From Chloroflexi bacterium RBG_13_51_52 (lineage in GTDB: Bacteria > Chloroflexota > Dehalococcoidia > Dehalococcoidales > RBG-16-60-22): a stretch of 56,860 nt of DNA. A program made the translations under genes and the position numbers. Under the pieces are notes generated by a model. The model saw only the letters and a list, made by a program, of their open reading frames with translations. It made no database searches and was not told the origin of the DNA. Positions 1,635 through 17,126 of this stretch are shown in pieces. Numbering within the stretch: position 1 is the stretch's first letter; every line of letters starts with the position of its first letter. The stretch is taken from NCBI GenBank assembly GCA_001796525.1, contig MGMT01000024.1, forward strand, positions 1-56,860, in the 5' to 3' direction.

Positions 1635-1641
1635 ACTCCTT

Positions 1642-3649: not shown

Positions 3650-3997
3650 CCGGATTCCTCCTTTAAAAATAATTTTAATAAAATTTAAAGCCCTGCAATT
3701 AATGCAAGGCTTCAAGATATCATCCTATCGGCAAGTTTCTGTTAAAACACGTACCATTAAGATACGATATTTTATTTTTTCTCTTTGAGAGTATCATAAT
3801 TAACCCTTTACAGAGATTTTTTTGTTGTTACAATTGTTTCATGGAATTATTGGTTACAGCTCCTGAATGAACTTGGTGATGTTATATATCAATGACTAGT
3901 GACCTATTATATAGCACTTGGCATGCCTTTTGTCAACATTTATTTCGATAATATATTGGCTTTTTGATATTTTTTTTAGTTATTCGTTAAATGATGT

Positions 3998-4026
3998 TTG
4001 ACAAGTGCCGGTATTTCATATAGTCT
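3998..4026 (+). promoter_or_regulatory. Possible sigma70-type promoter for the GAF kinase operon
   Basis: TTGACA at 3998-4003. Candidate -10 elements are TATAGT (4019-4024, 15-nt spacer) or TAGTCT (4021-4026, 17-nt spacer). Confidence 0.35.
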
Positions 4027-4074
4027 ATTCTATACTTATAATGTAGGCGAAAACAGGTAAAATATTACTGGTAT

Positions 4075-5352
4075 GTGAAAATGGTCGGAAAGAGTAACAA
4101 ACGCCCCAAAGCAACGAAGGAAAAAGAGGAACAACCTTCCGAGGTACTGGTGCTAAGCAGGATTTCAGCAGCGCTTAGCGGTTTATGGGACCTGGATGCC
4201 ATCCTCGGCGTGGGGCTAGACAGCGCCCTGAATATCATGAATGGAAACATTGGAGAAATACTGCTTATCGACGAGCAAACACAGAACCTGACGCGGCAAG
4301 TTTACCGGGGTTTGAGCAAAGAATTTGTCGATAATATACGATTAAGCCTTGGGGAAGGTATTAACGGTAGCGTGGCGCAAAGCGGCAAGGCGGTATTACT
4401 CGAGGATATTGCTTCAGACCCGCGCGTAGCACATCGTGAGCTGGTGGCGGCTGAAGGTCTGAAAGCGTTCATCTGCGTTCCACTTCGAGCCAGAGATGTG
4501 GTACTGGGCGTGTTGAACGTGGCGAGTCGTGTTCCGCGGCACTTTACCACAAACGATATGCATCTGCTGTACGCCATCGGCGACCAGCTGGGAATAGCCA
4601 TCGAGCATGCCCGGCTGTACGACCGACTGAGAAAAGCCCGCGAAAGGATGCGTCGACTCGCGCGCCAGAACCTAGTTGCCGAAGAAGACGAACGACGGAG
4701 AATCGCCAGAGAACTGCATGATGAAACAAGCCAATCGCTTTCCGGGATGGCCCTGCAGCTAGAGGCACTGATAGAAAAGTCGCAGATATCAGGCGACCAA
4801 GATAAAGAACTTGTCACCGGGCTGAAGAAAGTGCAGTCATTAACGGTTCAGGTGCATAAAGAAGTAAGCAGGCTGATTTCCAACCTACATCCGGCATTAC
4901 TGGACACGCTGGGACTGGTGCCGGCTGTCCGGCAGCATGCAGAGATAAGGCTACAGCCGCTGGGGACACACGTATCCATCGAGACAAAAGGAACAGTGAT
5001 GAGATTTCCACCGGATGTTGAAGCAGCCTTTTTCCGTTTTATCCAGGGAGCTATCGGCAATATAGCCCAGCATTCCAAGTGTAAAAATGCTAATATTATA
5101 CTGGAATATAAATCTGAAGAGTTTTCGATGTATGTCATCGATGACGGGCAGGGATTCGATGTTTCGGAGATTACCGATATCGAGGTAAGCGGGCGGGGCC
5201 GCGGTTTATTCAGTATGAGAGAGAGGATAGGTTCTCTCGGAGGCACCAGCGGGATAGAGTCGGAAATCGGCAAGGGGACAACAGTCTGGGCAAAAATACC
5301 CATTGGACAGGAAATAGGATATGCAGAAAATAAGAGTACTGGTAGTAGATGA
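4075..5352 (+). CDS. GAF-domain sensor histidine kinase (NarL-partner type, HisKA_3 + HATPase)
   Basis: GAF-like region ...GEGINGSVAQSGKAVLLEDI...; H-box EEDERRRIARELHDETSQSL; ATPase motifs DDGQGFD and GRGLFSMRERIGSLGG. The start is GTG 4075 or ATG 4081. Confidence 0.85.
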   Translation: MKMVGKSNKRPKATKEKEEQPSEVLVLSRISAALSGLWDLDAILGVGLDSALNIMNGNIGEILLIDEQTQNLTRQVYRGLSKEFVDNIRLSLGEGINGSVAQSGKAVLLEDIASDPRVAHRELVAAEGLKAFICVPLRARDVVLGVLNVASRVPRHFTTNDMHLLYAIGDQLGIAIEHARLYDRLRKARERMRRLARQNLVAEEDERRRIARELHDETSQSLSGMALQLEALIEKSQISGDQDKELVTGLKKVQSLTVQVHKEVSRLISNLHPALLDTLGLVPAVRQHAEIRLQPLGTHVSIETKGTVMRFPPDVEAAFFRFIQGAIGNIAQHSKCKNANIILEYKSEEFSMYVIDDGQGFDVSEITDIEVSGRGRGLFSMRERIGSLGGTSGIESEIGKGTTVWAKIPIGQEIGYAENKSTGSR

Positions 5353-5974
5353 CCACACGATAGTACGGGACGGCATTTGCGCGCTGCTGGCACTGGCGGG
5401 GGATATCGAGGTGGTGGGCGAAGCGACTAATGGAAACGAAGCCGTCAACAAGGTCCGAGAGCTGAACCCGGATGTAGTCCTGATGGATATAGCCATGCCG
5501 ATGATGGGAGGTCTAGAAGCCACCCGGCGAATAAATAAAGAGTTCCCCAAGACCAAGGTGCTGGTACTGACACAATACGACGATAAAGAATATTTCTTCC
5601 CGGTTATCGAGTCCGGGGCACTGGGATTTATCAGTAAAGCCGCCGCTTCTTCTGAACTGACAGCGGGGATACGTTCGGTTCACCGTGGTGACTCATACCT
5701 GTCACCATCGGTTACCAAGTTACTGGTGGATAATTACCAGAATATGGCGGGTAAAAACCCCAGTCAGGACCCATACAACCAATTAACGGAGCGGGAACGT
5801 GAGGTTTTCAAGCTTTTAGCGGAGGGGCATAGCACGCAAGAAATAGCGGAAATGCTGGTAATTACCCGGAAGACAGCGGAGGGGCACAAGACCAATCTCA
5901 TGGCTAAACTGGGCGTGCATAACAGGGTGGACCTGGTTAAATACGCCATTCGCAAGGGCATAATTACCGTCTAA
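5321..5974 (+). CDS. NarL/LuxR-family response regulator (REC + HTH)
   Basis: IRVLVVDDHTIVRDG...VVLMDIAMPMMGG receiver domain; C-terminal LTEREREVFKLLAEGHSTQEIAEMLVITRKTAEGHKTNLMAKLG LuxR-type HTH. It overlaps the kinase gene by 32 nt. Confidence 0.9.
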   Translation: MQKIRVLVVDDHTIVRDGICALLALAGDIEVVGEATNGNEAVNKVRELNPDVVLMDIAMPMMGGLEATRRINKEFPKTKVLVLTQYDDKEYFFPVIESGALGFISKAAASSELTAGIRSVHRGDSYLSPSVTKLLVDNYQNMAGKNPSQDPYNQLTEREREVFKLLAEGHSTQEIAEMLVITRKTAEGHKTNLMAKLGVHNRVDLVKYAIRKGIITV

Positions 5975-6147
5975 GTATCTGAAGGAATCCGGCCCGGTCT
6001 CATTATAAAATCCGCAGTACTTGCCGTATATTTTCATCTGTTCTTTCATCCCATGAAATACAGGGGTTTTTCCCGCGTATCTTTGGGGTGAATCCCCTGT
6101 TTATCTTCTTTTGCATCTGTCCTATATTGGCTTTATAGGGGTTTAAG

Positions 6148-6975
6148 GTGGAAAGGGGGCTGAAAATGGAAAAGAAACATACGGTCCTGATTGTTGATGA
6201 TGAAAGCGATTTTGTCGAAGTTTTGAAACAAATCCTCGAAAAGGAAAATTTTATCGTTGCCTCCGCCTACGACCGTGAAGAAGCAGAGCGCATGGTGCGC
6301 GCTCACGAGCCGGGGATTATTATCCTAGGCACAATCATGCCCCGCGGAGATGCATTTTTATTCCACAAGTGGATGAAACAGACGTTGGGATTCGGCAATC
6401 TGCCTATAATGGTTATCAATGCCCCGCCCGAAAAGCAACTGCTCAAGGGGTGGCGCATGGATGAAGGCATGCAGATGGACGCCGAAGATTTTCTCGCCAA
6501 GCCCGTAAAACCCGAATCGCTGATACCGCGTATTCAGGCTTTGCTGGACAGGACGACCAAGAAAATAAGGGTGTTGATAGCGGACGACCATGCCGTGGTC
6601 AGAGACGGGATAAGGTCGGTGCTGGCACTGCAAAGGGATATGCAGGTAATCGGTGAGGCGATAAACGGAAAAGAAGCACTGGAAAAAACGATAGAACTGA
6701 TACCAGATGTGGTGGTCATGGACATCGTTATGCCGATAATGAACGGGCTGGACGCCGCCAAGGAGATATGCCAGAGATGCAAGACCGCCAAGGTTTTAAT
6801 GCTGACACAATACGATGAGGAAGAAAACGTTCTGGCCAGTAAAAAAGTAGGTGCGGTGGGTTTTATACCTAAAGCCGCTGCCAGTTCCCGGTTGCTTACC
6901 GGCATACGTTCCGTGGCGCGGGGCGACCAGTCATGGATAGAATCACTCCAACCGCATATCGAGGAGCAGAGGTAA
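6148..6975 (+). CDS. Tandem receiver protein without output domain (degenerate REC + NarL-type REC)
   Basis: REC1 has LIVDDESDF but GIIILGTIMP, with Gly where the phospho-accepting Asp is expected. REC2 (IRVLIADDHAVVRDG...VVVMDIVMPIMNG) is a close paralog of the receiver at 5321-5974, and the protein ends without an HTH. The start may be ATG 6166. Confidence 0.8.
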   Translation: MERGLKMEKKHTVLIVDDESDFVEVLKQILEKENFIVASAYDREEAERMVRAHEPGIIILGTIMPRGDAFLFHKWMKQTLGFGNLPIMVINAPPEKQLLKGWRMDEGMQMDAEDFLAKPVKPESLIPRIQALLDRTTKKIRVLIADDHAVVRDGIRSVLALQRDMQVIGEAINGKEALEKTIELIPDVVVMDIVMPIMNGLDAAKEICQRCKTAKVLMLTQYDEEENVLASKKVGAVGFIPKAAASSRLLTGIRSVARGDQSWIESLQPHIEEQR

Positions 6976-6981
6976 GCCCAA

Positions 6982-9672
6982 GTGGAATCGATTACCATCG
7001 TTCTGAACGGCGTGGAGGTCAGCGGTAATCCGGGGACAACGATTCTCGATCTAGCGCGCGAGTCAGGAGTTTACATCCCTACTCTCTGTCACGATCCTAA
7101 CCTTGCTTCAACCGGCGCCTGCCGGCTATGCCTAGTGGAAGACGAACGCTCCGGAGCATTGCTGGCTTCATGTGTCGCCCCAATAAGCGCAGGGATGACT
7201 ATCAATACGAATTCGGTGAAAGTACTGGAACATCGCAAAAAGATACTCAAGCTCATGCTGGCAAGCCATCCGGACACCTGTATGGTCTGCAACAAGGGCA
7301 ATCGCTGCCAGCTACGTAAACTAGCAACGGAGATGGGTATAGGGCTGATAGAATACCAGAAAATACCCCAGTTAGACATTATCGAAGAAGTTAATCCGTT
7401 CATAGAACGGGACCTTTCAAAGTGCATCCTATGCGGAAAATGTATCCGGGCCGACCAAGAGCTGGTGGTGGAGGGGGCTATCGATTATATAAACCGGGGT
7501 ACCCAGGCAAAGCCGGCGACATTGAATGATGTGCCGCTGGAGAAAGCCGAGTGCACTTTCTGCGGAGCTTGTGTAGCCATCTGCCCTACCGGCGCGATCA
7601 TGGAAAAGGAAAGCGCCTACACCGGCACAGCCACAAATGTTGTAACGACAATATGCCCTTACTGCGGCTGCGGATGTTCTATTTCTCTGGGCATCAAGGA
7701 TGGTAAGGTAGTCCACGCCCAACCAGCCCCCGATAGTCCAATCAACCGGGGGACTCTCTGCGTCCGCGGCAGTTACGGCTACGATTTTATTCACAGCCCG
7801 GAGAGGTTAAAGACACCTTTAATTAAAGTAAATGGAGAGCTACAAGAAGCAAGCTGGGAAGAAGCTCTGTCCCTTATAGCGAATGAAATCCGGAGAATAA
7901 AGAAGGAGCACGGCGCCGATGCCCTAGCTGTCTTTGGCTCCACAAAATGTACTAACGAAGAAAATTACCTGCTACAGAAATTTGCCCGGGGAGTGCTGGG
8001 CACAAATAACATTGATAATGGCAGTCGACTTTACAGTTCAGCCAGCCGTATTGGACTCGGGGCATCCATAGGCTACGCCGGAACAACGGGTTCGATAGAC
8101 GCTTTAGAAAGGTCAAAGGCGATTATGGTAATCGGCGCCAATCCGGAAATATCGGCTCCGATCGTGGCATATGCCATCAAGCGGGCAGCCAGATACAAGG
8201 GGGCAGAGCTATGCGTTATCGACCCCCGCTGGACGCCCCTAGCACAATTCGCCCGCTACTGGCTGCAACCAAAAGTGGGCACCGATATCGCGCTGCTGAA
8301 CGGCATGGCGAAAGTAATCATCGACGAAAAGAAATACGACGTGGAATTTGTCACACGCATGACGGACAACTTCACGCAATGGGCGAAGAGCCTGGAAAAA
8401 TATACACCAGCCTATGTAGAACACGTAACCGGCATTCCCAGAAACGAAATACAGGCAGCAGCCAGAATGTTGGCCGGGGCAGAAGAGGCTTCAATAATAT
8501 ATGGGAACGGTATAACCCAGCATGCTACCGGCACCGATGCCGTCATTGCCATAGCCAACCTGGCAATGCTGACCGGTAACCTAGGGAGGCACGGGGGAAT
8601 ATTCGCACTACAACGTGAAAACAACGCTCATGGCGCCTGTGATATGGGAACTTTACCCGGTTTTCTCCCCGGTTATAAGAGCATAGAAAACGCGCAACAC
8701 AGGAAGAAATACGAGGAACGCTGGGGGATACAGATACCCAGCCAAACCGGTCTGACAGCGGTTGAAATGATGGAGGCAGCGCTATCAGGAAAGGTCAAGG
8801 GGATATTCATCACCGGGGAGAACGTTATCGCGAGCTTTCCGCAGCCGTCCAAGGTCAAAAAGGCTCTGCAAAATCTGGAATTTCTCGTGATTTCTGATAT
8901 GTTCCTGACAGAGACCGCCAGGATGGCTAACGTAATATTACCGGCTGCGAGTTTCGCGGAGAAAGAGGGGACCTTTACTAACTTCGAGGGGAGAGTGCAG
9001 CGACTGCACAAAGCTATCGAACCCTGTGGAGAAAGCCTGCCTGATAGCGAGATAATTATGCGAATTGCGGCGAAACTGGAGTCACCGATGCCATATACTT
9101 CCAGCCAGCAGGTGATGGAGGAAATCGAAGAGATGGTCCCCTTCTACCATTACCTAGCTTATAGAGACACCGAGCCAATCGAGGCGGACATAGAGGGCAA
9201 CGAGATAAACGCCCCGAGCAACAGGAGGCTTTATAACGGATTGTTCCCCAGCGGTTTCGGGCGGTTTTCAGCGGTTGAATATACGCCTCCGACGGATGTG
9301 GCTACGGAAAAATATCCCTTTACACTGCTGGTAGGTTCGGTGCTCTTTAATTTCGGCACCGGCTCACGCAGCTCGCGTTCAAAACGATTAAAGCAGTTCC
9401 GACCGGAGGCACTGCTTGAAATGAATAATAATGATGCAAAACGCCTGGGCGTCAAGGACGGTGACAAGATCAAGATTACCTCAACGCAGGGAGAACTGAC
9501 AACCACCGCAAAGCTGGACGCCAAGCTGCAACCCGGCTTGCTTTTTATGCCGATATCCTTCCCCGAACCTCCGGCGTATGAGCTATTCGATACTACCCTG
9601 TACCATCAAGCTAAAGCCCCGGCGCTTAAATCCTGCGCCGTAAAGGTGGAAAGGATTACCGATGACGGTTAA
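6982..9672 (+). CDS. FdhA/NuoG-like Fe-S + molybdopterin-fold protein lacking canonical formate dehydrogenase catalytic residues
   Basis: GTG start. It has an N-terminal 2Fe-2S region (CHDPNL...GACRLCLV), 4Fe-4S ferredoxin motifs (CILCGKCIRAD, CTFCGACVAICP) and a Mo-oxidoreductase Fe4S4 motif (ICPYCGCGCSI). It aligns by eye along E. coli FdhH. At the Sec140-His141 position it reads RLYSSAS versus RVUHGPS, and at Arg333 it reads ALQRENN versus PVRGQNN. Confidence 0.8.
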   Translation: MESITIVLNGVEVSGNPGTTILDLARESGVYIPTLCHDPNLASTGACRLCLVEDERSGALLASCVAPISAGMTINTNSVKVLEHRKKILKLMLASHPDTCMVCNKGNRCQLRKLATEMGIGLIEYQKIPQLDIIEEVNPFIERDLSKCILCGKCIRADQELVVEGAIDYINRGTQAKPATLNDVPLEKAECTFCGACVAICPTGAIMEKESAYTGTATNVVTTICPYCGCGCSISLGIKDGKVVHAQPAPDSPINRGTLCVRGSYGYDFIHSPERLKTPLIKVNGELQEASWEEALSLIANEIRRIKKEHGADALAVFGSTKCTNEENYLLQKFARGVLGTNNIDNGSRLYSSASRIGLGASIGYAGTTGSIDALERSKAIMVIGANPEISAPIVAYAIKRAARYKGAELCVIDPRWTPLAQFARYWLQPKVGTDIALLNGMAKVIIDEKKYDVEFVTRMTDNFTQWAKSLEKYTPAYVEHVTGIPRNEIQAAARMLAGAEEASIIYGNGITQHATGTDAVIAIANLAMLTGNLGRHGGIFALQRENNAHGACDMGTLPGFLPGYKSIENAQHRKKYEERWGIQIPSQTGLTAVEMMEAALSGKVKGIFITGENVIASFPQPSKVKKALQNLEFLVISDMFLTETARMANVILPAASFAEKEGTFTNFEGRVQRLHKAIEPCGESLPDSEIIMRIAAKLESPMPYTSSQQVMEEIEEMVPFYHYLAYRDTEPIEADIEGNEINAPSNRRLYNGLFPSGFGRFSAVEYTPPTDVATEKYPFTLLVGSVLFNFGTGSRSSRSKRLKQFRPEALLEMNNNDAKRLGVKDGDKIKITSTQGELTTTAKLDAKLQPGLLFMPISFPEPPAYELFDTTLYHQAKAPALKSCAVKVERITDDG

Positions 9673-10150
9673 AACGAAGAAGAAATCCAAGGTAGATCTT
9701 AAGCAGATAGAGAAAATCATCGCGGGATACCGGGGAAAGCGGTGGGCATTGATACCACTGGTCCAAGAAATTCAGGAGAAGGCGGGATTCATTCCCCCCG
9801 AGGTTATCCCGAGTATTGCCGGCGCTTTAAATCTATTCCCCAGCCAAGTGCAGGCGGTGATTACATTTTACGCTCAACTTTATACGAAACCCCGGGGTAG
9901 AAATATCGTCAGGGTGTGCCGGGGAACCGCCTGCCACGTACGCGGCGGGAACTCTATTCTGAAGCTGACCAAACAGCACCTCGGCATCGAGGAGGGGCAG
10001 ACTAGCGAAGACATGGAATATACCCTGGAAACGGTAGCCTGTATCGGCGTGTGCGCGCTCGCCCCAAATTTGATGATAAACAAAGATACATATGGTAATT
10101 TGAATCCCAAGAAAGTTGCCAGAATATTCGGTAGAGGCAAGAAGGAGTAA
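9662..10150 (+). CDS. NuoE/HydC-like thioredoxin-fold [2Fe-2S] subunit
   Basis: Cys motifs CRGTACHVRG and CIGVCALAPNLMIN. It overlaps the upstream gene by 11 nt. Confidence 0.85.
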   Translation: MTVKTKKKSKVDLKQIEKIIAGYRGKRWALIPLVQEIQEKAGFIPPEVIPSIAGALNLFPSQVQAVITFYAQLYTKPRGRNIVRVCRGTACHVRGGNSILKLTKQHLGIEEGQTSEDMEYTLETVACIGVCALAPNLMINKDTYGNLNPKKVARIFGRGKKE

Positions 10151-10151
10151 T

Positions 10152-13100
10152 ATGCCGGTGAAGCGTACCGTATTTGTATGCCGGGGCACCGGTTGTGTTT
10201 CCGGCGGCGGCGATGTCGTTTTCGAAGCCCTGAAGTCGGAACTCGTTAAACAGGGAGTAACCGAAGCTGCGGCAGACTTTTCCGGATGCCATGGTTTTTG
10301 CCAGCAGGGACCCAACGTGGTGGTGGAACCGGACGGTATTTTCTATACGCATGTAGAACTAGAAGATGCTGCGGAAATCGTGAGTTCACACCTGCATAAC
10401 GGCATACCGGTCGAGCGTCTTTTTTACCGCGACCCGGTAACCGGCAAATCGATATCGCAATACGCCGATATTAAATTTTATGACGAGCAGCAACGCGTGG
10501 TGATGCGTAACTGCGGGCAGATAAATCCCGAAAGAATTCGCGATTATACAGCCCGCGGAGGCTACGAATCGTTGAAAAAGGCGCTTTTCACGATGAAGCC
10601 GAAGGATGTTATCGACGTGATAAAGCGTTCCGGGCTGCGCGGACGGGGCGGGGCGGGATTCTCTACAGGCACCAAATGGGAGTTCTGCCATAACGCTCCC
10701 GGGAACCAGAAGTATATGATTTGCAACGCCGATGAAGGCGACCCAGGCGCTTTTATGGACCGCTCCATATTAGAAGCCGACCCTCATTCTGTCTTGGAAG
10801 GTATGGCTATCGCGGCATATGCCATCGGCGCCAGCGAGGGATATATTTATGTCCGCGCGGAGTACCCGCTAGCCGTGCAACGCCTGAAAACGGCGTTGGT
10901 GCAGGCGCAGGAGAGAGGCTTTTCCGGCAATAAAATACTCGGTTCCGGATTCGATTTAAACGTACATATCAAGGAAGGCGCAGGTGCTTTTGTATGCGGG
11001 GAGGAAACGGCGCTGATAGCTTCAATTGAAAGCAAACGCGGCATGCCACGTCCCCGCCCTCCTTTCCCGGCAAATTCCGGGCTTGACGGCAAACCGACGA
11101 TTATCAATAACACCAAAACCCTTGCAACCATTCCTATTATTATAGAAAGAGGGGCAGACTGGTTTGCCAGCATCGGTACAGAAAAAAGCAAAGGGACAGC
11201 GGTCTTTGCCCTCACCGGGAAAATTGCAAACAGCGGTCTGGTCGAGGTACCGATGGGCACGCCGTTGTCTCATATAGTCTATAACGTGGGCGGCGGTATT
11301 CCGCGAGGGCGGAGCCTTAAAGCGGTACAGACAGGGGGGCCCTCCGGGGGCTGCATCCCGGCGCGATTCATGGATACACCCATAGAATACGAGACGCTGG
11401 CGAAACTGGGTTCTATCATGGGTTCGGGCGGTATGGTGGTCATGGACGAGGCGACCTGCATGGTGGAAGTGGCGCGCTTCTTCGTCAGCTTTACGCAAAG
11501 CGAGTCCTGCGGCAAGTGCACTCCCTGCCGGCTGGGAACGCGGCAGATGCTGGAAATATTGACCAGAATTACCGAGGGCAAAGGACGCGACGATGACATC
11601 GACGCCCTACTTTCCATAGCGAAAACAGTTAAAGAATGTTCACTATGCGGGCTGGGGCAGACCGCACCTAACCCGGTGCTCTCTACCATTAACTATTTCC
11701 GCGATGAATACGAGGCTCATATAAGGGAGAAGAAATGCCCGGCGGCGGTCTGCGAAGCTTTGATGATATCGCCCTGCCAGCATACCTGCCCGGCGGGCAT
11801 CAATATACCGAAGTACGTGGCATATATCGCCGATGGCGATTATAAAGCTTCCATCGAGACTATAAGGGAACGCAACCCTTTTGCCGCGGTATGCGGACGC
11901 ATCTGCCACCATCCCTGCGAGGGACGGTGCCGACGCGGGGAGCTGGACGAGGCAGTGGCTATAAGGACACTGAAACGGTTTGCCGCCGACTGGTATGTGG
12001 AACATGGCGCCGAGATGGGAGAAGTAAAGCCTTTCCCAATCACGAAAAAACAGAAAGTGGCGGTGGTGGGAGCGGGACCGACCGGACTTGCCTGCGGCTA
12101 TTTCCTGGCGCAGTCAGGATACCCGGTGACGGTTTTCGAAGCATTGCCTATTGGTGGGGGCATGTTATCGGTAGCGATCCCGGAGTTTCGCTTACCGCGT
12201 GCTGCTATAGAGCAGGACATCGAATATATCATCAAAAAGGGCGTGGAGATAAAATACAATACACCGATTAATACTAACTTTACGATAGAACATCTAAGGA
12301 AAGACGGATATGCCGCAGTCTTTATCGCGGCAGGCGCGCAGAGGAGCCAGCGCCTGGGTATACCAGGAGAGGTCGAAGACTTAGAGGGTCTATACTACGG
12401 CTTGCGGTTCCTGCGGGATGTCAGGCTGGGGAGAGAGACGAAGGTAGGTAAAAAGGTGGCTATCATCGGGGGTGGCAACGTTGCCCTGGACGCAGCCCGT
12501 ACTTCACTCCGCCTCGGTGCGGAGGAAACCAGTATCTATTACCGTCGCTCCAGAGATGAGATGCCGGTCTCCGAAGTGGAGTATGAGGAGGCGATGGCTG
12601 AAGGTGTGAAAATCAATTTCCTGGTTTCTCCAACCAGAATAATCAGCGATAACTGGAAGGTTACCGGGATTCAATGTACCCGCATGCAACTGGGTGAACC
12701 CGACGACAGCGGAAGGCGACGCCCTATCCCCATCACGGGGTCGGAGTCTACAATCGCAGCGGATACGGTTATCGCCGCGGTGGGACAGGCGCCCGACCTT
12801 TCTTTCCTGCCACCCGATAGCGCCCTCGAACGGACGAGGTGGGAGACCCTGGTCACAGACAGTAATACTCTGGCGACTAACATACCCGGTATCTTCGCCG
12901 GCGGCGATTTTGTCACAGGGCCGGACATGGTTGTTAACGCCGTCGCGGCGGGGAGGAGAGGGGCAATCGCTATAGACAAGTACCTGCGCAAAGATACCTC
13001 ACGCGTGGAAATTTATGACAAGAAGTTGAAAAACGAAGGTGCAAAGCCACTGGAACTCGATGAGACATGGGAGAACCAACCCAGGACGAAGGTAAATACG

Positions 13101-13211
13101 CTGCCGCTACCGGAAAGGCGAGCGAGCTTTACAGAAATCGAGCTGGGCTTTTCTGAAGATATCGCCCAGCGCGAGGCCAAAAGGTGTCTGCGGTGCGACC
13201 TGGAAGAATGA
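10152..13211 (+). CDS. NuoF/HydB-like NADH-FMN-FeS module fused to GltD/NfnB-like FAD/NAD(P) oxidoreductase module
   Basis: I take the start as ATG 10152, behind GAAGGAG and just after the nuoE-like TAA; the track start at 10116 overlaps that gene. Motifs: N-terminal 2Fe-2S (VCRGTGC...CHGFC), GRGGAGFSTGTKW, ESCGKCTPCRLG, then CQHTCPAGINIPKY, VAVVGAGPTGLACG and VAIIGGGNVALDAART. Confidence 0.85.
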   Translation: MPVKRTVFVCRGTGCVSGGGDVVFEALKSELVKQGVTEAAADFSGCHGFCQQGPNVVVEPDGIFYTHVELEDAAEIVSSHLHNGIPVERLFYRDPVTGKSISQYADIKFYDEQQRVVMRNCGQINPERIRDYTARGGYESLKKALFTMKPKDVIDVIKRSGLRGRGGAGFSTGTKWEFCHNAPGNQKYMICNADEGDPGAFMDRSILEADPHSVLEGMAIAAYAIGASEGYIYVRAEYPLAVQRLKTALVQAQERGFSGNKILGSGFDLNVHIKEGAGAFVCGEETALIASIESKRGMPRPRPPFPANSGLDGKPTIINNTKTLATIPIIIERGADWFASIGTEKSKGTAVFALTGKIANSGLVEVPMGTPLSHIVYNVGGGIPRGRSLKAVQTGGPSGGCIPARFMDTPIEYETLAKLGSIMGSGGMVVMDEATCMVEVARFFVSFTQSESCGKCTPCRLGTRQMLEILTRITEGKGRDDDIDALLSIAKTVKECSLCGLGQTAPNPVLSTINYFRDEYEAHIREKKCPAAVCEALMISPCQHTCPAGINIPKYVAYIADGDYKASIETIRERNPFAAVCGRICHHPCEGRCRRGELDEAVAIRTLKRFAADWYVEHGAEMGEVKPFPITKKQKVAVVGAGPTGLACGYFLAQSGYPVTVFEALPIGGGMLSVAIPEFRLPRAAIEQDIEYIIKKGVEIKYNTPINTNFTIEHLRKDGYAAVFIAAGAQRSQRLGIPGEVEDLEGLYYGLRFLRDVRLGRETKVGKKVAIIGGGNVALDAARTSLRLGAEETSIYYRRSRDEMPVSEVEYEEAMAEGVKINFLVSPTRIISDNWKVTGIQCTRMQLGEPDDSGRRRPIPITGSESTIAADTVIAAVGQAPDLSFLPPDSALERTRWETLVTDSNTLATNIPGIFAGGDFVTGPDMVVNAVAAGRRGAIAIDKYLRKDTSRVEIYDKKLKNEGAKPLELDETWENQPRTKVNTLPLPERRASFTEIELGFSEDIAQREAKRCLRCDLEE

Positions 13212-13236
13212 GATTCCTTAGAGGGAGGGGTCAGCT

Positions 13237-13881
13237 ATGAAGTCAATAACAAAGCAAAAAACAATGGAAGAAGTTGAACAGAGCCTGAAAGGGCTGGATA
13301 GAATATTTATAATAGGCTGCGGCACCTGTACGACCATGACGAAGACCGGAGGCATCGACCAGGTAGCGGAGATGAAGGGAAAGCTACAGGACCTGGGCAA
13401 GCGGATAACCGGCACTACAGTAATACCCACCGCCTGCGACGACATGACCGAGACGGCGATGAAAGAAAACGAACAGTTTATACGCAACGCCGATGTGATT
13501 TTATCCATGGCCTGCGCGCTGGGGGTGCACCGGATGAGCCTGAACATCAGCAAACCGGTGATTCCCGCAGTTGATACATTATTTATAGGGGTGGAGGAGA
13601 CACCCGGATTTTTCCGCGAAGCCTGCGCCCAGTGCGGACAGTGTCTGCTCGGGGAGACAGCGGGAGTCTGCCCCATTACCGCCTGTCACAAGGGACTGGT
13701 CAACGGTCCTTGCGGGGGTACCAATAACGGCAAGTGTGAGGTGGACAAGGAAAAGGACTGTGCATGGACGCTGATATACAATCGATTAAAAGAGCAGGGC
13801 AGGCTCGAACTAATGCACCGGTACCAGCCGCCCCGCAACCATCACATCAGTCTGAAACCGAGGTCGGTGAGAATTCAGTGA
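13237..13881 (+). CDS. metV: Methylene-THF reductase Zn/Fe-S accessory subunit (MTHFR C-terminal-domain protein, MetV-type)
   Basis: Cys-rich signature ...CAQCGQCLLGETAGVCPITACHKGLVNGPCGG...GKCEV. It lies immediately upstream of metF. Confidence 0.8.
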   Translation: MKSITKQKTMEEVEQSLKGLDRIFIIGCGTCTTMTKTGGIDQVAEMKGKLQDLGKRITGTTVIPTACDDMTETAMKENEQFIRNADVILSMACALGVHRMSLNISKPVIPAVDTLFIGVEETPGFFREACAQCGQCLLGETAGVCPITACHKGLVNGPCGGTNNGKCEVDKEKDCAWTLIYNRLKEQGRLELMHRYQPPRNHHISLKPRSVRIQ

Positions 13882-13894
13882 GGGGGTAAGGAAA

Positions 13895-14779
13895 ATGGTA
13901 TCGCGTTTTAAAGAAGCTCTTAACTCCGGAAAGTTCGTAATTACGAGCGAAGTCGCCCCGCCGAAAGGGACGAACCTGGAAAAGATGTTCCACCACATCG
14001 AACTACTGAAAGATAAAGTGGATGCCATGAATGTCACGGACCACCAGAGTTCTGTGATGCGATACCCGTCACTGGGGGGGTGCCTGGCGGTTAAAGAGAG
14101 GGGCGGCGAGGCTATCATGCAGATGACCTGCCGCGACCGTAACCGGATGGCGCTGGAAGCCGACCTGCTTTTTGCATACAGCAGGGGCATCGAGAACGTA
14201 TTATGCCTTACCGGCGACGCGGTACCGGTTGGCGACCACAAGGAAGCCAAGGGCGTCTTCGACCTGGACTCACTACAACTACTGAAAGCTATCAAGCAGC
14301 TGACAGCCGGAGAGGACTTAGGCGGGAACAAGCTCGAAGGAGCGGTGGAGTTTTGCGCGGGGGCTATTGTTACGCCGGAGGCGCAGCCTATCGAGCCACA
14401 ATTGATAAAATTTGAAAAGAAGGTAGAAGCCGGCGCTGAATTTTTCCAGACCCAGGCTATCTATGACCTCGATAATTTCAGGAAATTTATGGAATACGCC
14501 CGAAAGCTAAAAGCCAAAGTGCTGGCGGGTATCGTCCTGCTTTCATCCGCCAGAATGGCAAAGTATATGACGGAGAACGTACCCGGTATCTTTGTGCCTA
14601 AGAACCTCATTGACGAACTGTCCGCAGTGCCGAAAGAGAATATGCTAGCCAAAGGGATTGAAATAGCGGGGCGGACAATCGCCGCTTTGAAGAAAGAAGC
14701 TCTTTGCGACGGCGTGCATATCATGGCTATCGGCAAAGAGGAGGTTGTGCCCGATATACTGGCGGCGGCGGGGCTTTAG
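13895..14779 (+). CDS. metF: 5,10-methylenetetrahydrofolate reductase
   Basis: 294 aa with ...VITSEVAPPKGT...NVTDHQSS...MQMTCRDRNR...ENVLCLTGD..., typical of MetF. Confidence 0.85.
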   Translation: MVSRFKEALNSGKFVITSEVAPPKGTNLEKMFHHIELLKDKVDAMNVTDHQSSVMRYPSLGGCLAVKERGGEAIMQMTCRDRNRMALEADLLFAYSRGIENVLCLTGDAVPVGDHKEAKGVFDLDSLQLLKAIKQLTAGEDLGGNKLEGAVEFCAGAIVTPEAQPIEPQLIKFEKKVEAGAEFFQTQAIYDLDNFRKFMEYARKLKAKVLAGIVLLSSARMAKYMTENVPGIFVPKNLIDELSAVPKENMLAKGIEIAGRTIAALKKEALCDGVHIMAIGKEEVVPDILAAAGL

Positions 14780-14942
14780 TTTAATCATTAATCGCAAACC
14801 ATATTCCGGTTGTTCAGACTTAATACATTGTTGAGTTGATTTTACTTTTTTTTAATGATATAAATTGTAATATGAAACATGCCATCATGCAGAGAAAATG
14901 CTTTTTGTTTTTCAAATCGAATAAAAGGAACGGGGAATAGAG

Positions 14943-14971
14943 TTGACAATTAAGGAAATATGGATTATAGT
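14943..14971 (+). promoter_or_regulatory. sigma70-type promoter upstream of the ABC transporter operon
   Basis: TTGACA (14943-14948), 17-nt spacer, TATAGT (14966-14971). This implies a ~165-nt 5' UTR before ATG 15144. Confidence 0.55.
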
Positions 14972-15143
14972 ATTTGAAAATTGAAAATTACAGGATAACA
15001 ATACACGGCGGAAGACGGGTATTCTGTGCGTGTTGATATAGGAAATTAAGAAAAGCCCAAAAATATTTATAACAGGGGAGGTCGATAATAGCCAATAATA
15101 AGAATATTTCAGGAATCGCCAAAATTTTAAAGAGGAGGAAAGA

Positions 15144-16820
15144 ATGAAAAAATTGTTACTGGTCCCGATATTCTTGATGCTGGCAGCTGTATTGATATTT
15201 ACCAGTTGCGGCGGAACAGCGACAACAACAGCAACACAACCTACAGCAACACAGCCAACAGCGACACAACCAACCGCAACACAACCCACAGGAACGCAAC
15301 CGATCAAACCTGAACCTTATGGTACGATAACCATCGGCTCCACAGATTTCAGCTACGAATCAACAGACCCAGTTTATTATGAGTCCTTCTGGGGCTGGTC
15401 AATGTATGAACCAATAATCACATGGGACCCCGATGGTAATTACGTTGGCAATGATGACGCCGATTGGGCCTGCACAGTAGCTGACAGCTGGTCAATAAGC
15501 GAAGACGGCAATACCTGGACGTTTAAAATCCACAAGGGCCTCAAAGCCTGGAACGGCGAGCCAATTACAGCAGAAGACGTCAAATGGTCCGTAGACCGGT
15601 TTGGGGATATGACAGTATCCACGAATCCCTGGTCATTTTTCCTTAGCACGATGTACAACACGAAAAGCACGGCTGTTATCGATGACTACACCTTCGAATT
15701 CGTGACCAATCATCCCGAGCCAGCTCTGGTCGTGCCTTTTGCCTGGACTCGCGTCCTGCCCAAGGACTACTTTGAGTCAGTAGGTCAGGAAGAATTCAGG
15801 AAGAACCCAATGGGTTCCGGTCCCTGGAAGTTCGTCGAGCATACTCCGGAGACCAGCTTTACGATGGAAGCCAACACAGACTACTGGAACCCACTAGCCA
15901 TACCCGAGTATAAAACTCTTAAATATCTCCAGGTTCCAGAAGAAGCAACGCAGGTTGCCATGCTCAAGCGCGGCGAACTTGATATGGTCACCGTAAACAT
16001 GGACAGGATCGTTGCACTGCAGAAAGCCGGCTGGAAAACCGTTGAATTCGGGTTCCCCGCCCTGATCAATCTGACCGTCCAGGGAAGCTACTATGAGACG
16101 GCCGGACCCGTGCACGACATAAGAGTCCGACAGGCATTATCCTATGCCATCAACCGCCAGGAAATTTGTGATTCCTACTACCTGGGTAACGCCGTACCGG
16201 GAGGCATGTGGTTCATGTCCCCGGGCAGCTATGGCTGGAAAGACTCATGGCTTAATTTCTACTCATATGATCCAGATAAAGCCAAAGCACTGCTGGCAGA
16301 AGCCGGATATCCGGATGCCTGGGAAGACCCGGTAATCCACATGTACATCTCACCAGGATCCGGAGTCGATTTCATGCAGATAATCCAGGGCTACTGGAGA
16401 GCTGTCGGTATCGACTGCGTAATTGAGATAGTTGACTCCGTGGTATATGGCGGTCTTTACTTTAGCTTCGGACCTCTGGCAGAAGATGCGCAAAACGTGG
16501 GCTGGATATTCCCGTGGTTCTTCAATGGCGCACCTAACAGCACATACCACGCATCCAACATGTACACATCGACGGGCGTGCACCACGGACTTACCGACCC
16601 GACGATTGACGCAATGTACGCGAAGTATGCCGCAGAACTCGACCCGGTGAAGGCATTGAAGTACTGGCAGGAGTTCCAGGAAGCGGGCCATGCCCAGTAT
16701 ATCAATATCGGCATCTGCATGGTTAAACCGCTGGTTATCTCCGGACCTAACCTTGGTGCATGGAGCTACAAGACCTGGGTTTCCTCCGCCGATTCTCTAG
16801 CCTTCCTTAAGCACCCTTAA
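15144..16820 (+). CDS. ABC transporter substrate-binding lipoprotein, family 5 (peptide/nickel, Opp/Dpp-type)
   Basis: Signal peptide plus lipobox-like ...LIFTSC|GG, a TATQP x4 linker, then a family-5 solute-binding-protein-like body. It is followed by two permeases and two ATPases. Confidence 0.85.
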   Translation: MKKLLLVPIFLMLAAVLIFTSCGGTATTTATQPTATQPTATQPTATQPTGTQPIKPEPYGTITIGSTDFSYESTDPVYYESFWGWSMYEPIITWDPDGNYVGNDDADWACTVADSWSISEDGNTWTFKIHKGLKAWNGEPITAEDVKWSVDRFGDMTVSTNPWSFFLSTMYNTKSTAVIDDYTFEFVTNHPEPALVVPFAWTRVLPKDYFESVGQEEFRKNPMGSGPWKFVEHTPETSFTMEANTDYWNPLAIPEYKTLKYLQVPEEATQVAMLKRGELDMVTVNMDRIVALQKAGWKTVEFGFPALINLTVQGSYYETAGPVHDIRVRQALSYAINRQEICDSYYLGNAVPGGMWFMSPGSYGWKDSWLNFYSYDPDKAKALLAEAGYPDAWEDPVIHMYISPGSGVDFMQIIQGYWRAVGIDCVIEIVDSVVYGGLYFSFGPLAEDAQNVGWIFPWFFNGAPNSTYHASNMYTSTGVHHGLTDPTIDAMYAKYAAELDPVKALKYWQEFQEAGHAQYINIGICMVKPLVISGPNLGAWSYKTWVSSADSLAFLKHP

Positions 16821-16864
16821 GAGAATACTTGGTTCGTTAAAAGACCAGTTTAACGCGAAATAGA

Positions 16865-16897
16865 GGCTTTTCGGGGGGTAATCCCCCCCGAAAAGCC
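16865..16897 (+). terminator. Stem-loop after the SBP gene (intra-operon attenuator or terminator)
   Basis: GGCTTTTCGGGGGG-taat-CCCCCCCGAAAAGCC, a perfect 14-bp stem. There is no contiguous U-tract. Confidence 0.45.
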
Positions 16898-17126
16898 ATG
16901 GTTCAAAAAATTACCCTTAGGTATCATAATGAGTGGTACTTTGTATCCATTTTTACCGAATTATACGCAATATACGGATAATTTTAATGAGAAATTTGTA
17001 TAAATGCTAAAATATTTGACACTTAGATAATATATATGTATCATAGAATTAATTACTCAAATTTAGTATTACACTAAGATAAAAAGGAACTATTCTTAGT
17101 AATCCCAAATATCAAGGGAAAAGACA

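What the first reader, a model, noticed from the sequence alone, without database searches (positions are those of the whole stretch)
6982..14779. MetFV linked to a NuoE / NuoF-GltD fusion / NuoG-like module: candidate unusual (bifurcating?) methylene-THF reductase complex
Five genes lie head-to-tail with overlaps or very short gaps (11-nt overlap, 1-nt gap, 25 nt, 13 nt). They are FdhA/NuoG-like, NuoE-like, a 1019-aa NuoF-HydB::GltD-NfnB fusion, MetV and MetF.

The known MetFV partnerships in acetogens are MetFV alone, MetFV-HdrABC-MvhD (Moorella type) and MetFV-RnfC2 (Acetobacterium type). NuoEF-like (HydBC) modules combined with NfnB/GltD-like modules form flavin-based bifurcating enzymes such as the Sporomusa-type Nfn.

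A MetFV pair wired to a full NuoEFG-like plus GltD-like module is not one of the arrangements I know. It would offer NADH, NADPH and ferredoxin sites next to the methylene-THF reductase.
Basis: inference. Interest (0 to 1): 0.65.

Follow-up and report, generated by a model that had tools for sequence, protein, structure and literature searches.

The report
Methylene-folate reductase with NuoEFG-like partners
In a Dehalococcoidales genome, the two core genes of an anaerobic methylene-tetrahydrofolate reductase sit in one packed operon behind three genes for an NADH/NADPH/ferredoxin-type electron module whose formate-dehydrogenase-like subunit has lost its catalytic residues; the arrangement is conserved in two phyla, but a 2021 paper already flagged it as an unstudied 'X-type' reductase, so it is real and worth biochemistry but not a new discovery.

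Summary
On the + strand lie an FdhA/NuoG-like gene (6982-9672), NuoE (9662-10150), a 1019-aa NuoF::GltD fusion (10152-13211), MetV (13237-13881) and MetF (13895-14779). A two-receiver response-regulator gene (6166-6975) sits 6 nt upstream.

New here:
- The FdhA-like subunit is not a formate dehydrogenase. Its catalytic Cys/Sec, His and Arg are replaced, while all Fe-S ligands are invariant.
- The NuoF half is of the bifurcating HydB/BfuB type. The GltD half is the same cassette as in StnC/NfnA.
- The five-gene core recurs in 20 of 20 informative loci from Dehalococcoidia and Desulfobacterota, with varying flanks.
- These fusions form one clade. Sister clades pair with genuine Cys/Sec formate dehydrogenases or [FeFe]-hydrogenases.

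The most likely reading is a five-subunit MetVF reductase fed by a Stn/Bfu-like NAD(H)/NADP(H)/ferredoxin module. This is inferred, not shown. The main rival is a separate Stn-like transhydrogenase co-expressed with a ferredoxin-dependent MetVF, as the Sporomusa ovata precedent suggests.

Yi et al. 2021 (PMC8515935) already named this arrangement the 'X type' MTHFR, widespread in Desulfobacterales and Chloroflexi and unstudied. Interest is moderate.

The parts
4075..5352 (+). GAF-HisKA_3-HATPase sensor histidine kinase, an associated regulator rather than part of the enzyme
   Evidence: Pfam. The same kinase type lies next to the operon in relatives: upstream in L082 and L084, downstream of metF in L083.
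5321..5974 (+). NarL/LuxR-type response regulator (REC + GerE)
   Evidence: Pfam. Conserved beside the operon in Dehalococcoidia loci.
5975..6165 (+). 191-nt intergenic region and likely promoter region of the operon; no confident promoter was called
   Evidence: Sequence. The promoter scan was not above the shuffled background.
6166..6975 (+). Response regulator with two receiver domains and no output domain; first gene of the transcription unit
   Evidence: Pfam shows two REC stretches. It ends 6 nt before the next start and has a Shine-Dalgarno sequence. It is conserved in Dehalococcoidia loci, directly upstream of the FdhA-like gene or, in L083, 2 nt downstream of metF. It is absent from the Desulfobacterota versions.
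6982..9672 (+). FdhA/NuoG-like (BfuA-like) subunit, 896 aa. All Fe-S ligands are kept and the formate dehydrogenase active site is lost. Predicted to act as an electron wire and scaffold.
   Evidence: Domains. Full-length match to Rhodobacter capsulatus FdsA 6tg9_A (E 1.6e-170), but 'ARVCHSPT' becomes 'SRLYSSAS' and 'PLRGQNN' becomes 'ALQRENN'. The same loss occurs in all 15 MetVF-linked orthologues, whereas FdhA genes downstream of NuoE-NuoF keep Cys or Sec. Invariant ligands are C36/47/50/64, H96/C100/103/109, C148/151/154/201, C191/194/197 and C225/228/232/260.
9662..10150 (+). NuoE/HydC (BfuC)-like [2Fe-2S] subunit, 162 aa
   Evidence: PF01257 at 162 bits; NF005722 above its cutoff. C86/C91/C127/C131 are invariant in 19 of 19 orthologues.
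10152..13211 (+). NuoF/HydB (BfuB)-like flavoprotein fused to an NfnB/GltD-like FAD-NAD(P)H module, 1019 aa
   Evidence: Residues 6-538 match the bifurcating hydrogenase subunit HydB (7t2r_B, 765 bits; 7q4v_B), including the N-terminal [2Fe-2S] domain. Residues 540-1016 match the GltD cassette of NfnA/StnC (9bov_A residues 102-567, 9n5u_A, 8oh5_C). Conserved motifs are RGRGGAGF, GAGPxGL, and GGGNVA(L/I)D followed by YRR(S/T). Invariant Cys sets.
13237..13881 (+). MetV, the Fe-S subunit of MetVF-type methylene-THF reductase, 214 aa
   Evidence: PF12225 at 124 bits. Twelve Cys are invariant in 16 of 16 orthologues. It lies 25 nt after the fusion gene with a strong Shine-Dalgarno sequence.
13895..14779 (+). 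MetF, the catalytic flavoprotein subunit of methylene-THF reductase, 294 aa
   Evidence: PF02219 at 146 bits. It is 70-88% identical to the MetF of the same arrangement in both phyla.
14780..15143 (+). AT-rich 364-nt spacer that ends the operon, with the best promoter-like site for the next unit (an Opp-type ABC transporter)
   Evidence: TTGACA-17-TATAGT at 14943-14971, 11 of 12 matches. Sequence. Downstream genes are an SBP_bac_5 protein, permeases and ATPases.

Best explanation
The genes at 6982-14779 encode one five-subunit methylene-tetrahydrofolate reductase of the so-called 'X type'.

Proposed roles of the subunits:
- MetF (flavin) and MetV (Fe-S) form the folate-reactive core.
- The catalytically dead FdhA-like protein serves as a BfuA-type Fe-S wire and scaffold.
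- NuoE and the HydB-like half of the fusion form a Bfu-type core with an FMN/NAD(H) site.
- The fused NfnB/GltD-like half adds an FAD/NADP(H) site and two [4Fe-4S] clusters, which take the place of the HydB C-terminal ferredoxin domain.

Proposed reaction: the enzyme couples the high-potential pair methylene-THF/methyl-THF (about -200 mV) and low-potential ferredoxin to pyridine nucleotides by flavin-based electron bifurcation or confurcation. One possible stoichiometry is methyl-THF + reduced ferredoxin + NAD+ + NADP+ <-> methylene-THF + oxidised ferredoxin + NADH + NADPH. This would make methyl-THF oxidation feasible in organisms that run folate C1 chemistry oxidatively, and would save energy in the reductive direction.

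What is shown: gene order and translational coupling signals; domain and cofactor-ligand content; loss of the formate dehydrogenase active site; strict co-inheritance of the five genes.

What is inferred: physical association; the electron path MetF -> MetV -> FdhA-like clusters -> core; ferredoxin involvement; stoichiometry; physiological direction.

Expression is probably controlled by the adjacent two-component system.
For: 1. The genes are packed, with Shine-Dalgarno sequences and no room for internal promoters or terminators.

2. The five-gene core (dead FdhA, NuoE, NuoF::GltD, MetV, MetF) is present in 20 of 20 loci where the contig allows a check. These come from Dehalococcoidia and Desulfobacterota, and the flanking genes differ.

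3. A neighbour-joining tree of 65 full-length fusions places all MetVF-linked ones in one clade. Other clades pair with catalytic Cys/Sec FdhA or with HydA. Schut et al. 2022 used the same criterion to assign functions within the Bfu family (PMC9304861).

4. The FdhA-like subunit has lost Cys/Sec, His and Arg in all 15 MetVF-linked orthologues. In that clade the Fe-S N-terminus is more conserved than the Mo domain (0.74 vs 0.57 identity within a phylum, 0.56 vs 0.37 between phyla). Catalytic FdhAs show the reverse pattern, 0.50 vs 0.59. The module therefore lacks its own formate-type substrate site and needs a partner.

5. In Desulfobacterota the module genes are sandwiched between an extra MTHFR-fold gene and metVF.

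6. There is a second, independent association. In L041 a NuoE-NuoF::GltD pair of a different clade lies inside an hdrB-like / HdrA-like / mvhD / metV / metF cluster.

7. MetV is found covalently fused to an RnfC-type Complex1_51K flavoprotein (P0328), so MetV does dock onto NuoF-family modules. The Acetobacterium woodii MetFV-RnfC2 enzyme is the biochemical precedent (cited in PMC5736913).

8. Yi et al. 2021 reported that MetFV of this arrangement forms its own phylogenetic group, distinct from the 2-, 3- and 6-subunit types (PMC8515935).
Against: - No protein-level evidence exists for any member.
- The closest characterised module, Stn of Sporomusa ovata, is also encoded next to metVF. [quoted passage not shown]
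- MetVF alone can be a complete, ferredoxin-dependent enzyme, as in Clostridium ljungdahlii (PMC8515935).
- No Rosetta-stone fusion of MetV with NuoE, NuoF, GltD or the FdhA-like protein appeared among the best 150 MetV representatives; Pfam was run on 10 of them, including all of the longest.
- The HydB C-terminal ferredoxin domain, part of the Bfu signature, is missing as such.
- No other Wood-Ljungdahl genes are in the window, so the metabolic role is unknown.
- Co-inheritance of an operon can also reflect co-regulation and transfer as a block.
Confidence: 0.42

Rival explanations
1. The operon encodes two separate enzymes expressed together. [quoted passage not shown] The second is a two-subunit, ferredoxin-dependent MetVF. 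They share an operon because both serve folate C1 redox balance.
For: The domain inventory is identical to StnABC: NuoE, HydB-like NuoF, a GltD cassette and a catalytically inactive FDH-like domain. In Sporomusa ovata, stnABC lies directly downstream of metVF, yet Stn purified alone and had no formate activity (PMC7483475). MetFV alone is active with reduced ferredoxin in Clostridium ljungdahlii (PMC8515935). No MetV-module fusion protein was found.
Against: Stn/Nfn-Bfu genes generally occur without metVF, for example in Thermococcus, Caldicellulosiruptor and Dehalobacteriia (PMC9304861, PMC10327494). This clade, in contrast, is never seen without metVF (20 of 20 loci). The clade-to-partner correspondence in the tree suggests the partner defines the function. 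The Desulfobacterota sandwich arrangement and the L041 hybrid cluster are hard to explain by co-regulation alone. The FdhA-like subunit is much closer to genuine FDH alpha subunits (581 bits, full length) than to StnC (254 bits, partial), so it is not simply an inherited Stn.
Confidence: 0.33
2. The five proteins form a single complex that does not bifurcate. The NuoEF::GltD/FdhA-like module simply delivers electrons from NADH and/or NADPH to MetVF. This would be a larger analogue of the Acetobacterium woodii MetFV-RnfC2 enzyme, with no ferredoxin coupling.
For: The A. woodii type shows that MetFV plus a Complex1_51K flavoprotein makes a plain NADH-dependent reductase (cited). MetV::RnfC fusions exist. 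The HydB C-terminal ferredoxin domain, implicated in the Bfu mechanism, is replaced here.
Against: The NuoF half is about 60% identical to bifurcating HydB subunits. It keeps the extra N-terminal [2Fe-2S] domain that non-bifurcating NuoF and FdsB lack: 765 bits to 7t2r_B against 359-398 bits to non-bifurcating FDH beta subunits and Nqo1 (PMC9304861). Two separate nucleotide sites plus more than ten Fe-S clusters would be excessive for a simple exergonic reduction.
Confidence: 0.14
3. The first three genes encode a working NAD(P)+-dependent, possibly bifurcating, formate dehydrogenase that merely shares a C1 operon with metVF.
For: TIGR01591 (formate dehydrogenase alpha) scores 707 bits, above its 666-bit cutoff. 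The best PDB matches are NAD-dependent formate dehydrogenases. Related NuoE-NuoF::GltD pairs do sit next to genuine FdhA genes.
Against: The Mo-ligating Cys/Sec is replaced by Tyr, the adjacent His by Ser, the catalytic Arg by Gln, and the Lys44-equivalent by Arg. These positions are not even conserved among orthologues (Y/S/A/N; S/N/G; Q/A/S/T), and the Mo domain evolves faster than the Fe-S part. All true FdhA neighbours keep 'HCARL(C/U)H' and 'PLRGQNNVQG'.
Confidence: 0.03

Closest known systems
'X-type' MTHFR gene arrangement (Yi et al. 2021, Microbiol Spectr, PMC8515935): metFV preceded by NuoEFG homologues in Dethiosulfatarculus sandiegensis; stated to be widespread in Desulfobacterales and Chloroflexi; uncharacterised
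   Same: It has the same gene neighbourhood (NuoG-like, NuoE, NuoF, then MetV, MetF) and the same two lineages. The window is a Chloroflexota (Dehalococcoidales) example. Its MetF is 70-76% identical to Desulfobacterota MetF in the same arrangement.
   Different: The paper gives only a paragraph. It does not mention the GltD fusion, the dead formate dehydrogenase site, the HydB/Bfu character of NuoF, the extra MTHFR paralogue in Desulfobacterota or the linked two-component systems. I could not compare directly with the D. sandiegensis sequences.
Stn / NfnABC (Nfn-Bfu) transhydrogenase of Sporomusa ovata, Caldicellulosiruptor saccharolyticus and Thermococcus sibiricus (PMC7483475, PMC9304861; PDB 8oh5, 9bov, 9n5u)
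   Same: It shares the NuoE-like subunit, the HydB-type NuoF with an N-terminal [2Fe-2S] domain, a GltD/NfnB cassette with the same boundaries (query 540-1016 matches StnC 102-566), and an FDH-like domain without formate activity. In S. ovata the genes also adjoin metVF.
   Different: Here the GltD cassette is fused to the C-terminus of NuoF, replacing the HydB ferredoxin domain, rather than being inserted into the NuoG-like subunit. The FdhA-like subunit is a recently inactivated full-length FDH alpha (581 bits to FdsA), not the diverged StnC domain (254 bits, partial). Gene order differs, and linkage to metVF is obligatory.
Acetobacterium woodii MetFV-RnfC2, the three-subunit NADH-dependent MTHFR
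   Same: It also combines MetFV with a Complex1_51K-family FMN flavoprotein as the nucleotide entry point. MetV::RnfC fusions confirm that kind of docking.
   Different: There is no RnfC2 here. Instead there are NuoE, a HydB-like NuoF::GltD and a large FDH-like Fe-S subunit. The A. woodii enzyme does not bifurcate.
Moorella thermoacetica MetFV-HdrABC-MvhD, the six-subunit MTHFR
   Same: It also joins MetFV to a flavin-based bifurcation-type module, and the idea is the same: NADH oxidation is coupled to methylene-THF reduction and to a low-potential acceptor.
   Different: No Hdr or MvhD genes are in the window. The module belongs to the Bfu (HydBC) family, not the HdrA family. Locus L041 is a hybrid of the two.
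NAD-dependent formate dehydrogenase FdsABG (R. capsulatus 6tg9) and Fdh-Bfu enzymes
   Same: The subunit set of alpha (NuoG + Mo domain), NuoF-like and NuoE-like proteins is the same, and the alpha subunit is the best structural relative (E 1e-170 to 1e-173).
   Different: The catalytic Cys/Sec, His and Arg are absent. Gene order is alpha-first instead of alpha-last. The NuoF is of the bifurcating type and carries GltD.

Membership tests
X-type MTHFR arrangement (Yi et al. 2021) | metV-metF immediately preceded by genes for NuoE, NuoF and NuoG homologues | tested here: met
   Gene order and domains. The definition comes from PMC8515935.
X-type MTHFR arrangement (Yi et al. 2021) | Occurrence in Desulfobacterales and Chloroflexi, with MetFV forming its own phylogenetic group (group III) | tested here: inconclusive
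   The same arrangement was found in both lineages, with MetF 70-88% identical.
MetVF-type methylene-THF reductase core | A MetF (PF02219) gene adjacent to a MetV (PF12225) gene with conserved Cys clusters | tested here: met
   Twelve Cys of MetV are invariant.
MetVF-type methylene-THF reductase core | Methylene-THF reductase activity | not testable with these tools
   This requires an enzyme assay.
Bfu (HydABC-type) bifurcating family (Schut et al. 2022) | BfuB of the HydB type, with clusters beyond the NuoF N3 cluster (N-terminal [2Fe-2S] and C-terminal 2x[4Fe-4S]) | tested here: inconclusive
   The N-terminal [2Fe-2S] domain (C10/15/46/50) and the N3-type cluster are present, and identity to bifurcating HydB is about 60% (765 bits). 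The C-terminal ferredoxin domain is replaced by the GltD two-cluster domain with 8 invariant Cys.
Bfu (HydABC-type) bifurcating family (Schut et al. 2022) | BfuC (NuoE/HydC-like [2Fe-2S]) and a BfuA-type Fe-S subunit encoded alongside | tested here: met
Bfu (HydABC-type) bifurcating family (Schut et al. 2022) | Coupled turnover of NAD(H), ferredoxin and a third substrate | not testable with these tools
   This requires biochemistry.
Stn / NfnABC transhydrogenase | The GltD/NfnB cassette is inserted in the NuoG-like (BfuA) subunit, giving a three-subunit enzyme | tested here: not met
   The cassette is present with the same boundaries, but on the NuoF polypeptide.
Stn / NfnABC transhydrogenase | An FDH-like domain without a formate dehydrogenase active site | tested here: met
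   For Stn, the absence of formate activity is reported in PMC7483475.
Metal-dependent formate dehydrogenase alpha subunit (FdhA/FdsA/FdhF) | A Mo/W-ligating Cys or Sec followed by His, plus the catalytic Arg (E. coli FdhF U140/H141/R333; R. capsulatus C386/H387/R587, residue numbers from my own knowledge) | tested here: not met
   The residues are Tyr351/Ser352 and Gln544 in the window. The positions are variable in orthologues, and control FdhAs keep C/U-H and R.
Acetobacterium-type MetFV-RnfC2 | An rnfC2 gene next to metVF | tested here: not met
   No RnfC_N domain protein was found in the window.
Moorella-type MetFV-HdrABC-MvhD | hdrA, hdrB, hdrC and mvhD genes next to metVF | tested here: not met
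   No CCG, HdrA or FlpD domain proteins were found in the window. They are present in the unrelated locus L041.

The most novel reading that the evidence does not exclude
The operon encodes a so far uncharacterised Bfu-family enzyme, 'MetVF-Bfu'. In it, an inactivated formate dehydrogenase alpha subunit has been exapted as the wire between MetVF and a HydBC-type core that carries both an NAD(H) and an NADP(H) site. The result would be a four-substrate enzyme (methylene/methyl-THF, NAD, NADP, ferredoxin). It would solve the endergonic methyl-THF oxidation step of the reverse Wood-Ljungdahl and methyl-oxidising pathways in Desulfobacterota and Dehalococcoidia, and it would be the first MTHFR demonstrably coupled to ferredoxin by bifurcation.
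Probability: 0.4. Interest if true: 0.8.

Novelty: new member of a known kind. Interest (0 to 1): 0.5.

Why it matters
[quoted passage not shown] NADH-driven reduction wastes energy, and methyl-THF oxidation with NAD(P)+ is endergonic. The proposed bifurcation by the Moorella-type complex has never been demonstrated.

It joins MetVF to a module whose relatives are proven bifurcating enzymes.

The finding that the FDH-like subunit is catalytically dead, and that the module clade is inseparable from metVF, gives a concrete and testable enzyme model. A cultured carrier, D. sandiegensis, is named in the literature. If the model is confirmed, energy budgets for complete-oxidising sulfate reducers and subsurface Chloroflexota would change, and the Bfu family would gain a new substrate class.

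Tried and rejected
- **Promoter and terminator scan of 3700-17200.** Counts were not clearly above the shuffled background (24 vs 15.8 +/- 4.6 and 24 vs 15.9 +/- 3.8). Only the 14943-14971 site after metF was used, as weak support for the operon boundary.
- **Rosetta-stone search.** The MetV family has 1418 representatives. Fusions exist with MetF, RnfC-51K, Fer4, Rieske and HisKA-HATPase. None was seen with NuoE, NuoF, GltD or the FdhA-like protein among the 10 representatives I scanned with Pfam, which included all of the longest of the best 150. This gives no direct support for the complex.
- **PDB search with MetV.** There were no hits, so no structural template for docking is available.
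- **Literature searches for 'Bfu' plus MTHFR, and for follow-ups on D. sandiegensis.** Nothing relevant turned up beyond Yi et al. 2021. [quoted passage not shown]
- **'Ordinary NAD-dependent formate dehydrogenase next to metVF'.** Considered first and rejected on the active-site evidence.
- **Other Wood-Ljungdahl genes in the window.** None were found.

Full report
**Observation.**
- FdhA/NuoG-like, 6982-9672.
- NuoE, 9662-10150 (11-nt overlap).
- A 1019-aa fusion, 10152-13211 (1-nt gap).
- MetV, 13237-13881 (25-nt gap).
- MetF, 13895-14779 (13-nt gap).

Pfam and NCBIfam confirm every domain call. Each start is preceded by a GGAGG-like Shine-Dalgarno sequence. The unit actually begins one gene earlier, with a response regulator made of two receiver domains (6166-6975) that ends 6 nt before the FdhA-like start. 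A GAF-HisKA_3 kinase and a LuxR-type regulator lie directly upstream (4075-5974). After metF comes a 364-nt AT-rich spacer holding the best promoter-like site of the region (14943-14971), followed by an Opp-type ABC transporter. The best protein matches are Dehalococcoidales and Chloroflexi genomes assembled from metagenomes, at 91% identity to Chloroflexi bacterium RBG_13_52_12.

**What the first three genes are.** The FdhA-like protein matches NAD-dependent formate dehydrogenase alpha subunits over its full length (9wxb_B, E 3e-173; R. capsulatus 6tg9_A, E 1.6e-170). In that alignment the active-site stretch 'ARVCHSPT' is 'SRLYSSAS' in the window, and 'PLRGQNN' is 'ALQRENN'. The metal-ligating Cys/Sec, the adjacent His and the catalytic Arg are therefore all replaced.

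I collected 80 loci that encode relatives of the fusion from one genome per species and aligned every FdhA-like ORF.
- All 15 full-length FdhA-like proteins next to metVF lack these residues (Cys to Y/S/A/N; His to S/N/G; Arg to Q/A/S/T; the Lys44-equivalent to Arg in 14 of 15).
- Every FdhA encoded downstream of NuoE-NuoF without metVF keeps 'HCARLCH' and 'PLRGQNNVQG', or has an in-frame TGA exactly at the Cys position, which indicates selenocysteine (seven cases).
- Constraint is reversed. In the dead clade the Fe-S N-terminus is more conserved than the Mo domain (0.74 vs 0.57 identity within a phylum, 0.56 vs 0.37 between phyla). In catalytic FdhAs the pattern is the opposite, 0.50 vs 0.59.
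- All Fe-S ligands are invariant. One cluster ligand is Asp instead of Cys in 12 of 15 orthologues.

This subunit is therefore an electron wire or scaffold, not a formate dehydrogenase.

**The fusion protein.** Residues 6-538 are about 60% identical to HydB of electron-bifurcating hydrogenases (7t2r_B, 765 bits; 7q4v_B, 732 bits). The match includes the extra N-terminal [2Fe-2S] domain that plain NuoF and FdsB lack. According to Schut et al. 2022, the non-bifurcating homologues lack these extra clusters (PMC9304861). Residues 540-1016 match the NfnB/GltD cassette as it occurs inside NfnA/StnC (9bov_A residues 102-567, 408 bits; 9n5u_A; 8oh5_C residues 102-566). The HydB C-terminal ferredoxin domain is replaced by the two-cluster N-terminal domain of GltD, which has eight invariant Cys. 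Three motifs are conserved in both phyla: the FMN/NADH motif RGRGGAGF, the FAD motif GAGPxGL, and a second dinucleotide fold, GGGNVA(L/I)D followed by YRR(S/T). From my knowledge of NfnB/GltD enzymes, I read the last motif as an NADPH signature. That reading is an inference.

NuoE, the HydB-like NuoF, the GltD cassette and a dead FDH-like domain make up exactly the domain inventory of the Sporomusa-type Nfn. There, StnA is NuoE-like, StnB is NuoF-like and StnC is a GltD::NuoG/FDH-like fusion with no formate activity (PMC7483475). In the window the GltD cassette sits on a different polypeptide.

**Conservation and specificity of the link to metVF.** The order dead-FdhA, NuoE, NuoF::GltD, MetV, MetF is found in Dehalococcoidia (L001-L007, L012, L082-L084) and in Desulfobacterota (L009-L011, L013-L015, L081, L085, L086). 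In every one of the 20 loci where the contig continues, metV directly follows the fusion, while the flanking genes differ.

A neighbour-joining tree of 65 full-length fusions puts all metVF-linked ones in a single clade. Its sister, L018, is followed by a Sec-FdhA. Other clades are followed by catalytic FdhA or by an [FeFe]-hydrogenase HydA, or have other or unknown partners, such as the Acidobacteria clade and a Loki-archaeal locus with a GltB-like gene. Schut et al. used this same clade-to-partner pattern to assign functions within the Bfu family.

In Desulfobacterota, an additional diverged MTHFR-fold gene (about 30% identical to MetF) lies directly upstream of the dead FdhA, so the module genes sit between two MTHFR-family genes. 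Independently, in L041 a NuoE-NuoF::GltD pair from another clade lies inside a cluster of an hdrB-like gene, a BfuA::HdrA-like gene, mvhD, metV and metF.

**Mechanism.** My best-supported reading is a five-subunit reductase in which MetF (flavin) and MetV (Fe-S) exchange electrons with the Fe-S chain of the dead FdhA-like subunit. That chain connects to the NuoE/HydB-like core (FMN, NAD(H)) and to the fused GltD module (FAD, probably NADP(H)).

Methylene-THF/methyl-THF sits near -200 mV, NAD(P)H near -320 mV and ferredoxin near -450 to -500 mV (values as cited in PMC8515935 and PMC6295475). Coupling methyl-THF and reduced ferredoxin to two pyridine nucleotides would therefore be close to equilibrium and reversible. 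The presence of two nucleotide sites fits that four-electron balance. These steps are inference. What is shown is gene order, cofactor content, loss of the FDH site and co-inheritance.

Supporting analogies are the A. woodii MetFV-RnfC2 enzyme (MetFV plus a 51K-type flavoprotein) and natural MetV::RnfC-51K fusion proteins (P0328).

**Rivals.** The main rival is that the module is a free-standing Stn-like transhydrogenase co-expressed with a ferredoxin-dependent two-subunit MetVF. Its strength is the S. ovata precedent: stnABC lies directly downstream of metVF, yet Stn purified alone. I also found no MetV fusion to any module subunit. A second rival is a non-bifurcating NAD(P)H-dependent complex. 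A working formate dehydrogenase is essentially excluded.

**Comparison with what is known.** The arrangement is not one of the three textbook types (MetFV alone, MetFV-RnfC2, MetFV-HdrABC-MvhD), but it has been noticed before. Yi et al. [quoted passage not shown] I found no later characterisation in the held library. The Bfu family survey lists no MTHFR type.

The window is therefore a Chloroflexota member of an already flagged but biochemically unknown kind. As far as I could find, the following points have not been described:
- the dead formate dehydrogenase site;
- the HydB/Bfu and StnC-cassette nature of the fusion;
- the monophyly of the metVF-linked module;
- the extra MTHFR paralogue;
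- the linked two-component systems.

**Limits.** There is no expression or protein data, and no multimer modelling was possible. The tree is a quick neighbour-joining tree without support values. No other Wood-Ljungdahl genes are in the window, and whole genomes of carriers could not be scanned, so the physiological direction (reductive, oxidative or anabolic) is open.

**Verdict.** Novelty is 'new member of a known kind', and interest is 0.5.

Noticed in passing
window 35853-44800 (+): An archaellum-type gene cluster in a bacterial (Dehalococcoidales) genome. It has two archaellins (PF01917), two weaker Arch_flagellin/FlaF-Ig-like genes, a T2SSF/FlaJ-like gene, a KaiC-like FlaH-like ATPase and a T2SSE/FlaI-like ATPase. 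Kinase and response-regulator genes follow at 45605-50201.
   Followed up: no
window 362-3715 (-): A phage-tail-like contractile module: T4 baseplate protein family, gp19 tail tube, tail sheath and a 150-aa ORF with no Pfam family. It could be a prophage remnant or a contractile injection system.
   Followed up: no
window 28453-32270 (+): A DMSO-reductase-family three-gene set in the order B (4Fe-4S), C (NrfD membrane anchor), A (710-aa Mo-bisPGD subunit with 'YICHSP' at the ligand position). It is a second molybdopterin enzyme in the window, unrelated to the operon.
   Followed up: no
window 6166-6975; L083 14690-15517: The REC-REC protein with no output domain is translationally packed with the enzyme genes. 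It lies upstream of the FdhA-like gene in the window, L001, L002, L005, L007, L023, L082 and L084, and 2 nt downstream of metF in L083. Its role is unexplained; it could be a phosphorelay component or a modulator of the enzyme.
   Followed up: partly
L081 5741-6616; L085 5827-6702; L086 4579-5454; L010 5680-6555: Desulfobacterota versions carry an extra MTHFR-fold gene of 291 aa directly upstream of the dead FdhA. It is about 30% identical to MetF and 73-82% identical among its own copies, and several MetF-conserved residues are changed (HH to KR, LTGD to FTED). It may be a non-catalytic or alternative pterin-binding subunit.
   Followed up: partly
L041 8018-18773: A hybrid cluster with, in order: an HdrB-like (CCG) gene, NuoE with an N-terminal FAD/Fer4 extension, NuoF::GltD, an 1101-aa BfuA-N-terminus::HdrA-like protein, MvhD, MetV and MetF. 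It looks like a chimera of the Moorella-type and Bfu-type MTHFR neighbourhoods.
   Followed up: partly
window 6982-9672, residue 158 of the FdhA-like protein: The fourth Cys of one ferredoxin-type [4Fe-4S] motif (CxxCxxCxxxC) is Asp in 12 of 15 metVF-linked orthologues, and Cys in all 5 catalytic FdhAs. This suggests an Asp-ligated or [3Fe-4S] cluster in the wire.
   Followed up: partly
proteins P0243, P0242, P0332 (MetV family representatives): Unusual MetV fusions: MetV::HisKA-HATPase (a possible redox-sensing histidine kinase, 47% identical to the window MetV), Fer4-dicluster::MetV (54% identical) and MetV::Rieske. Their genomic context could not be looked up.
   Followed up: no
L027, L028, L029, L031, L034-L037, L043, L045, L071: NuoE-NuoF::GltD pairs of other clades have an [FeFe]-hydrogenase HydA-like gene elsewhere in the same locus; adjacency and Pfam domains were checked only in L027, where it directly follows the fusion. 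This suggests HydABC-type hydrogenases with a built-in NADP(H) site. In a Loki-archaeal locus (L046) the pair is followed by a small 2Fe-2S protein and a GltB-like gene.
   Followed up: partly
window 23523-24863 and 53850-55688: A URO-D-family protein, the family that includes corrinoid methyltransferases such as MtaA, and an aldehyde:ferredoxin oxidoreductase. AFOR and 2-oxoacid:ferredoxin oxidoreductase genes also flank the operon in relatives L083 and L084, which hints at a ferredoxin-rich metabolic context.
   Followed up: no
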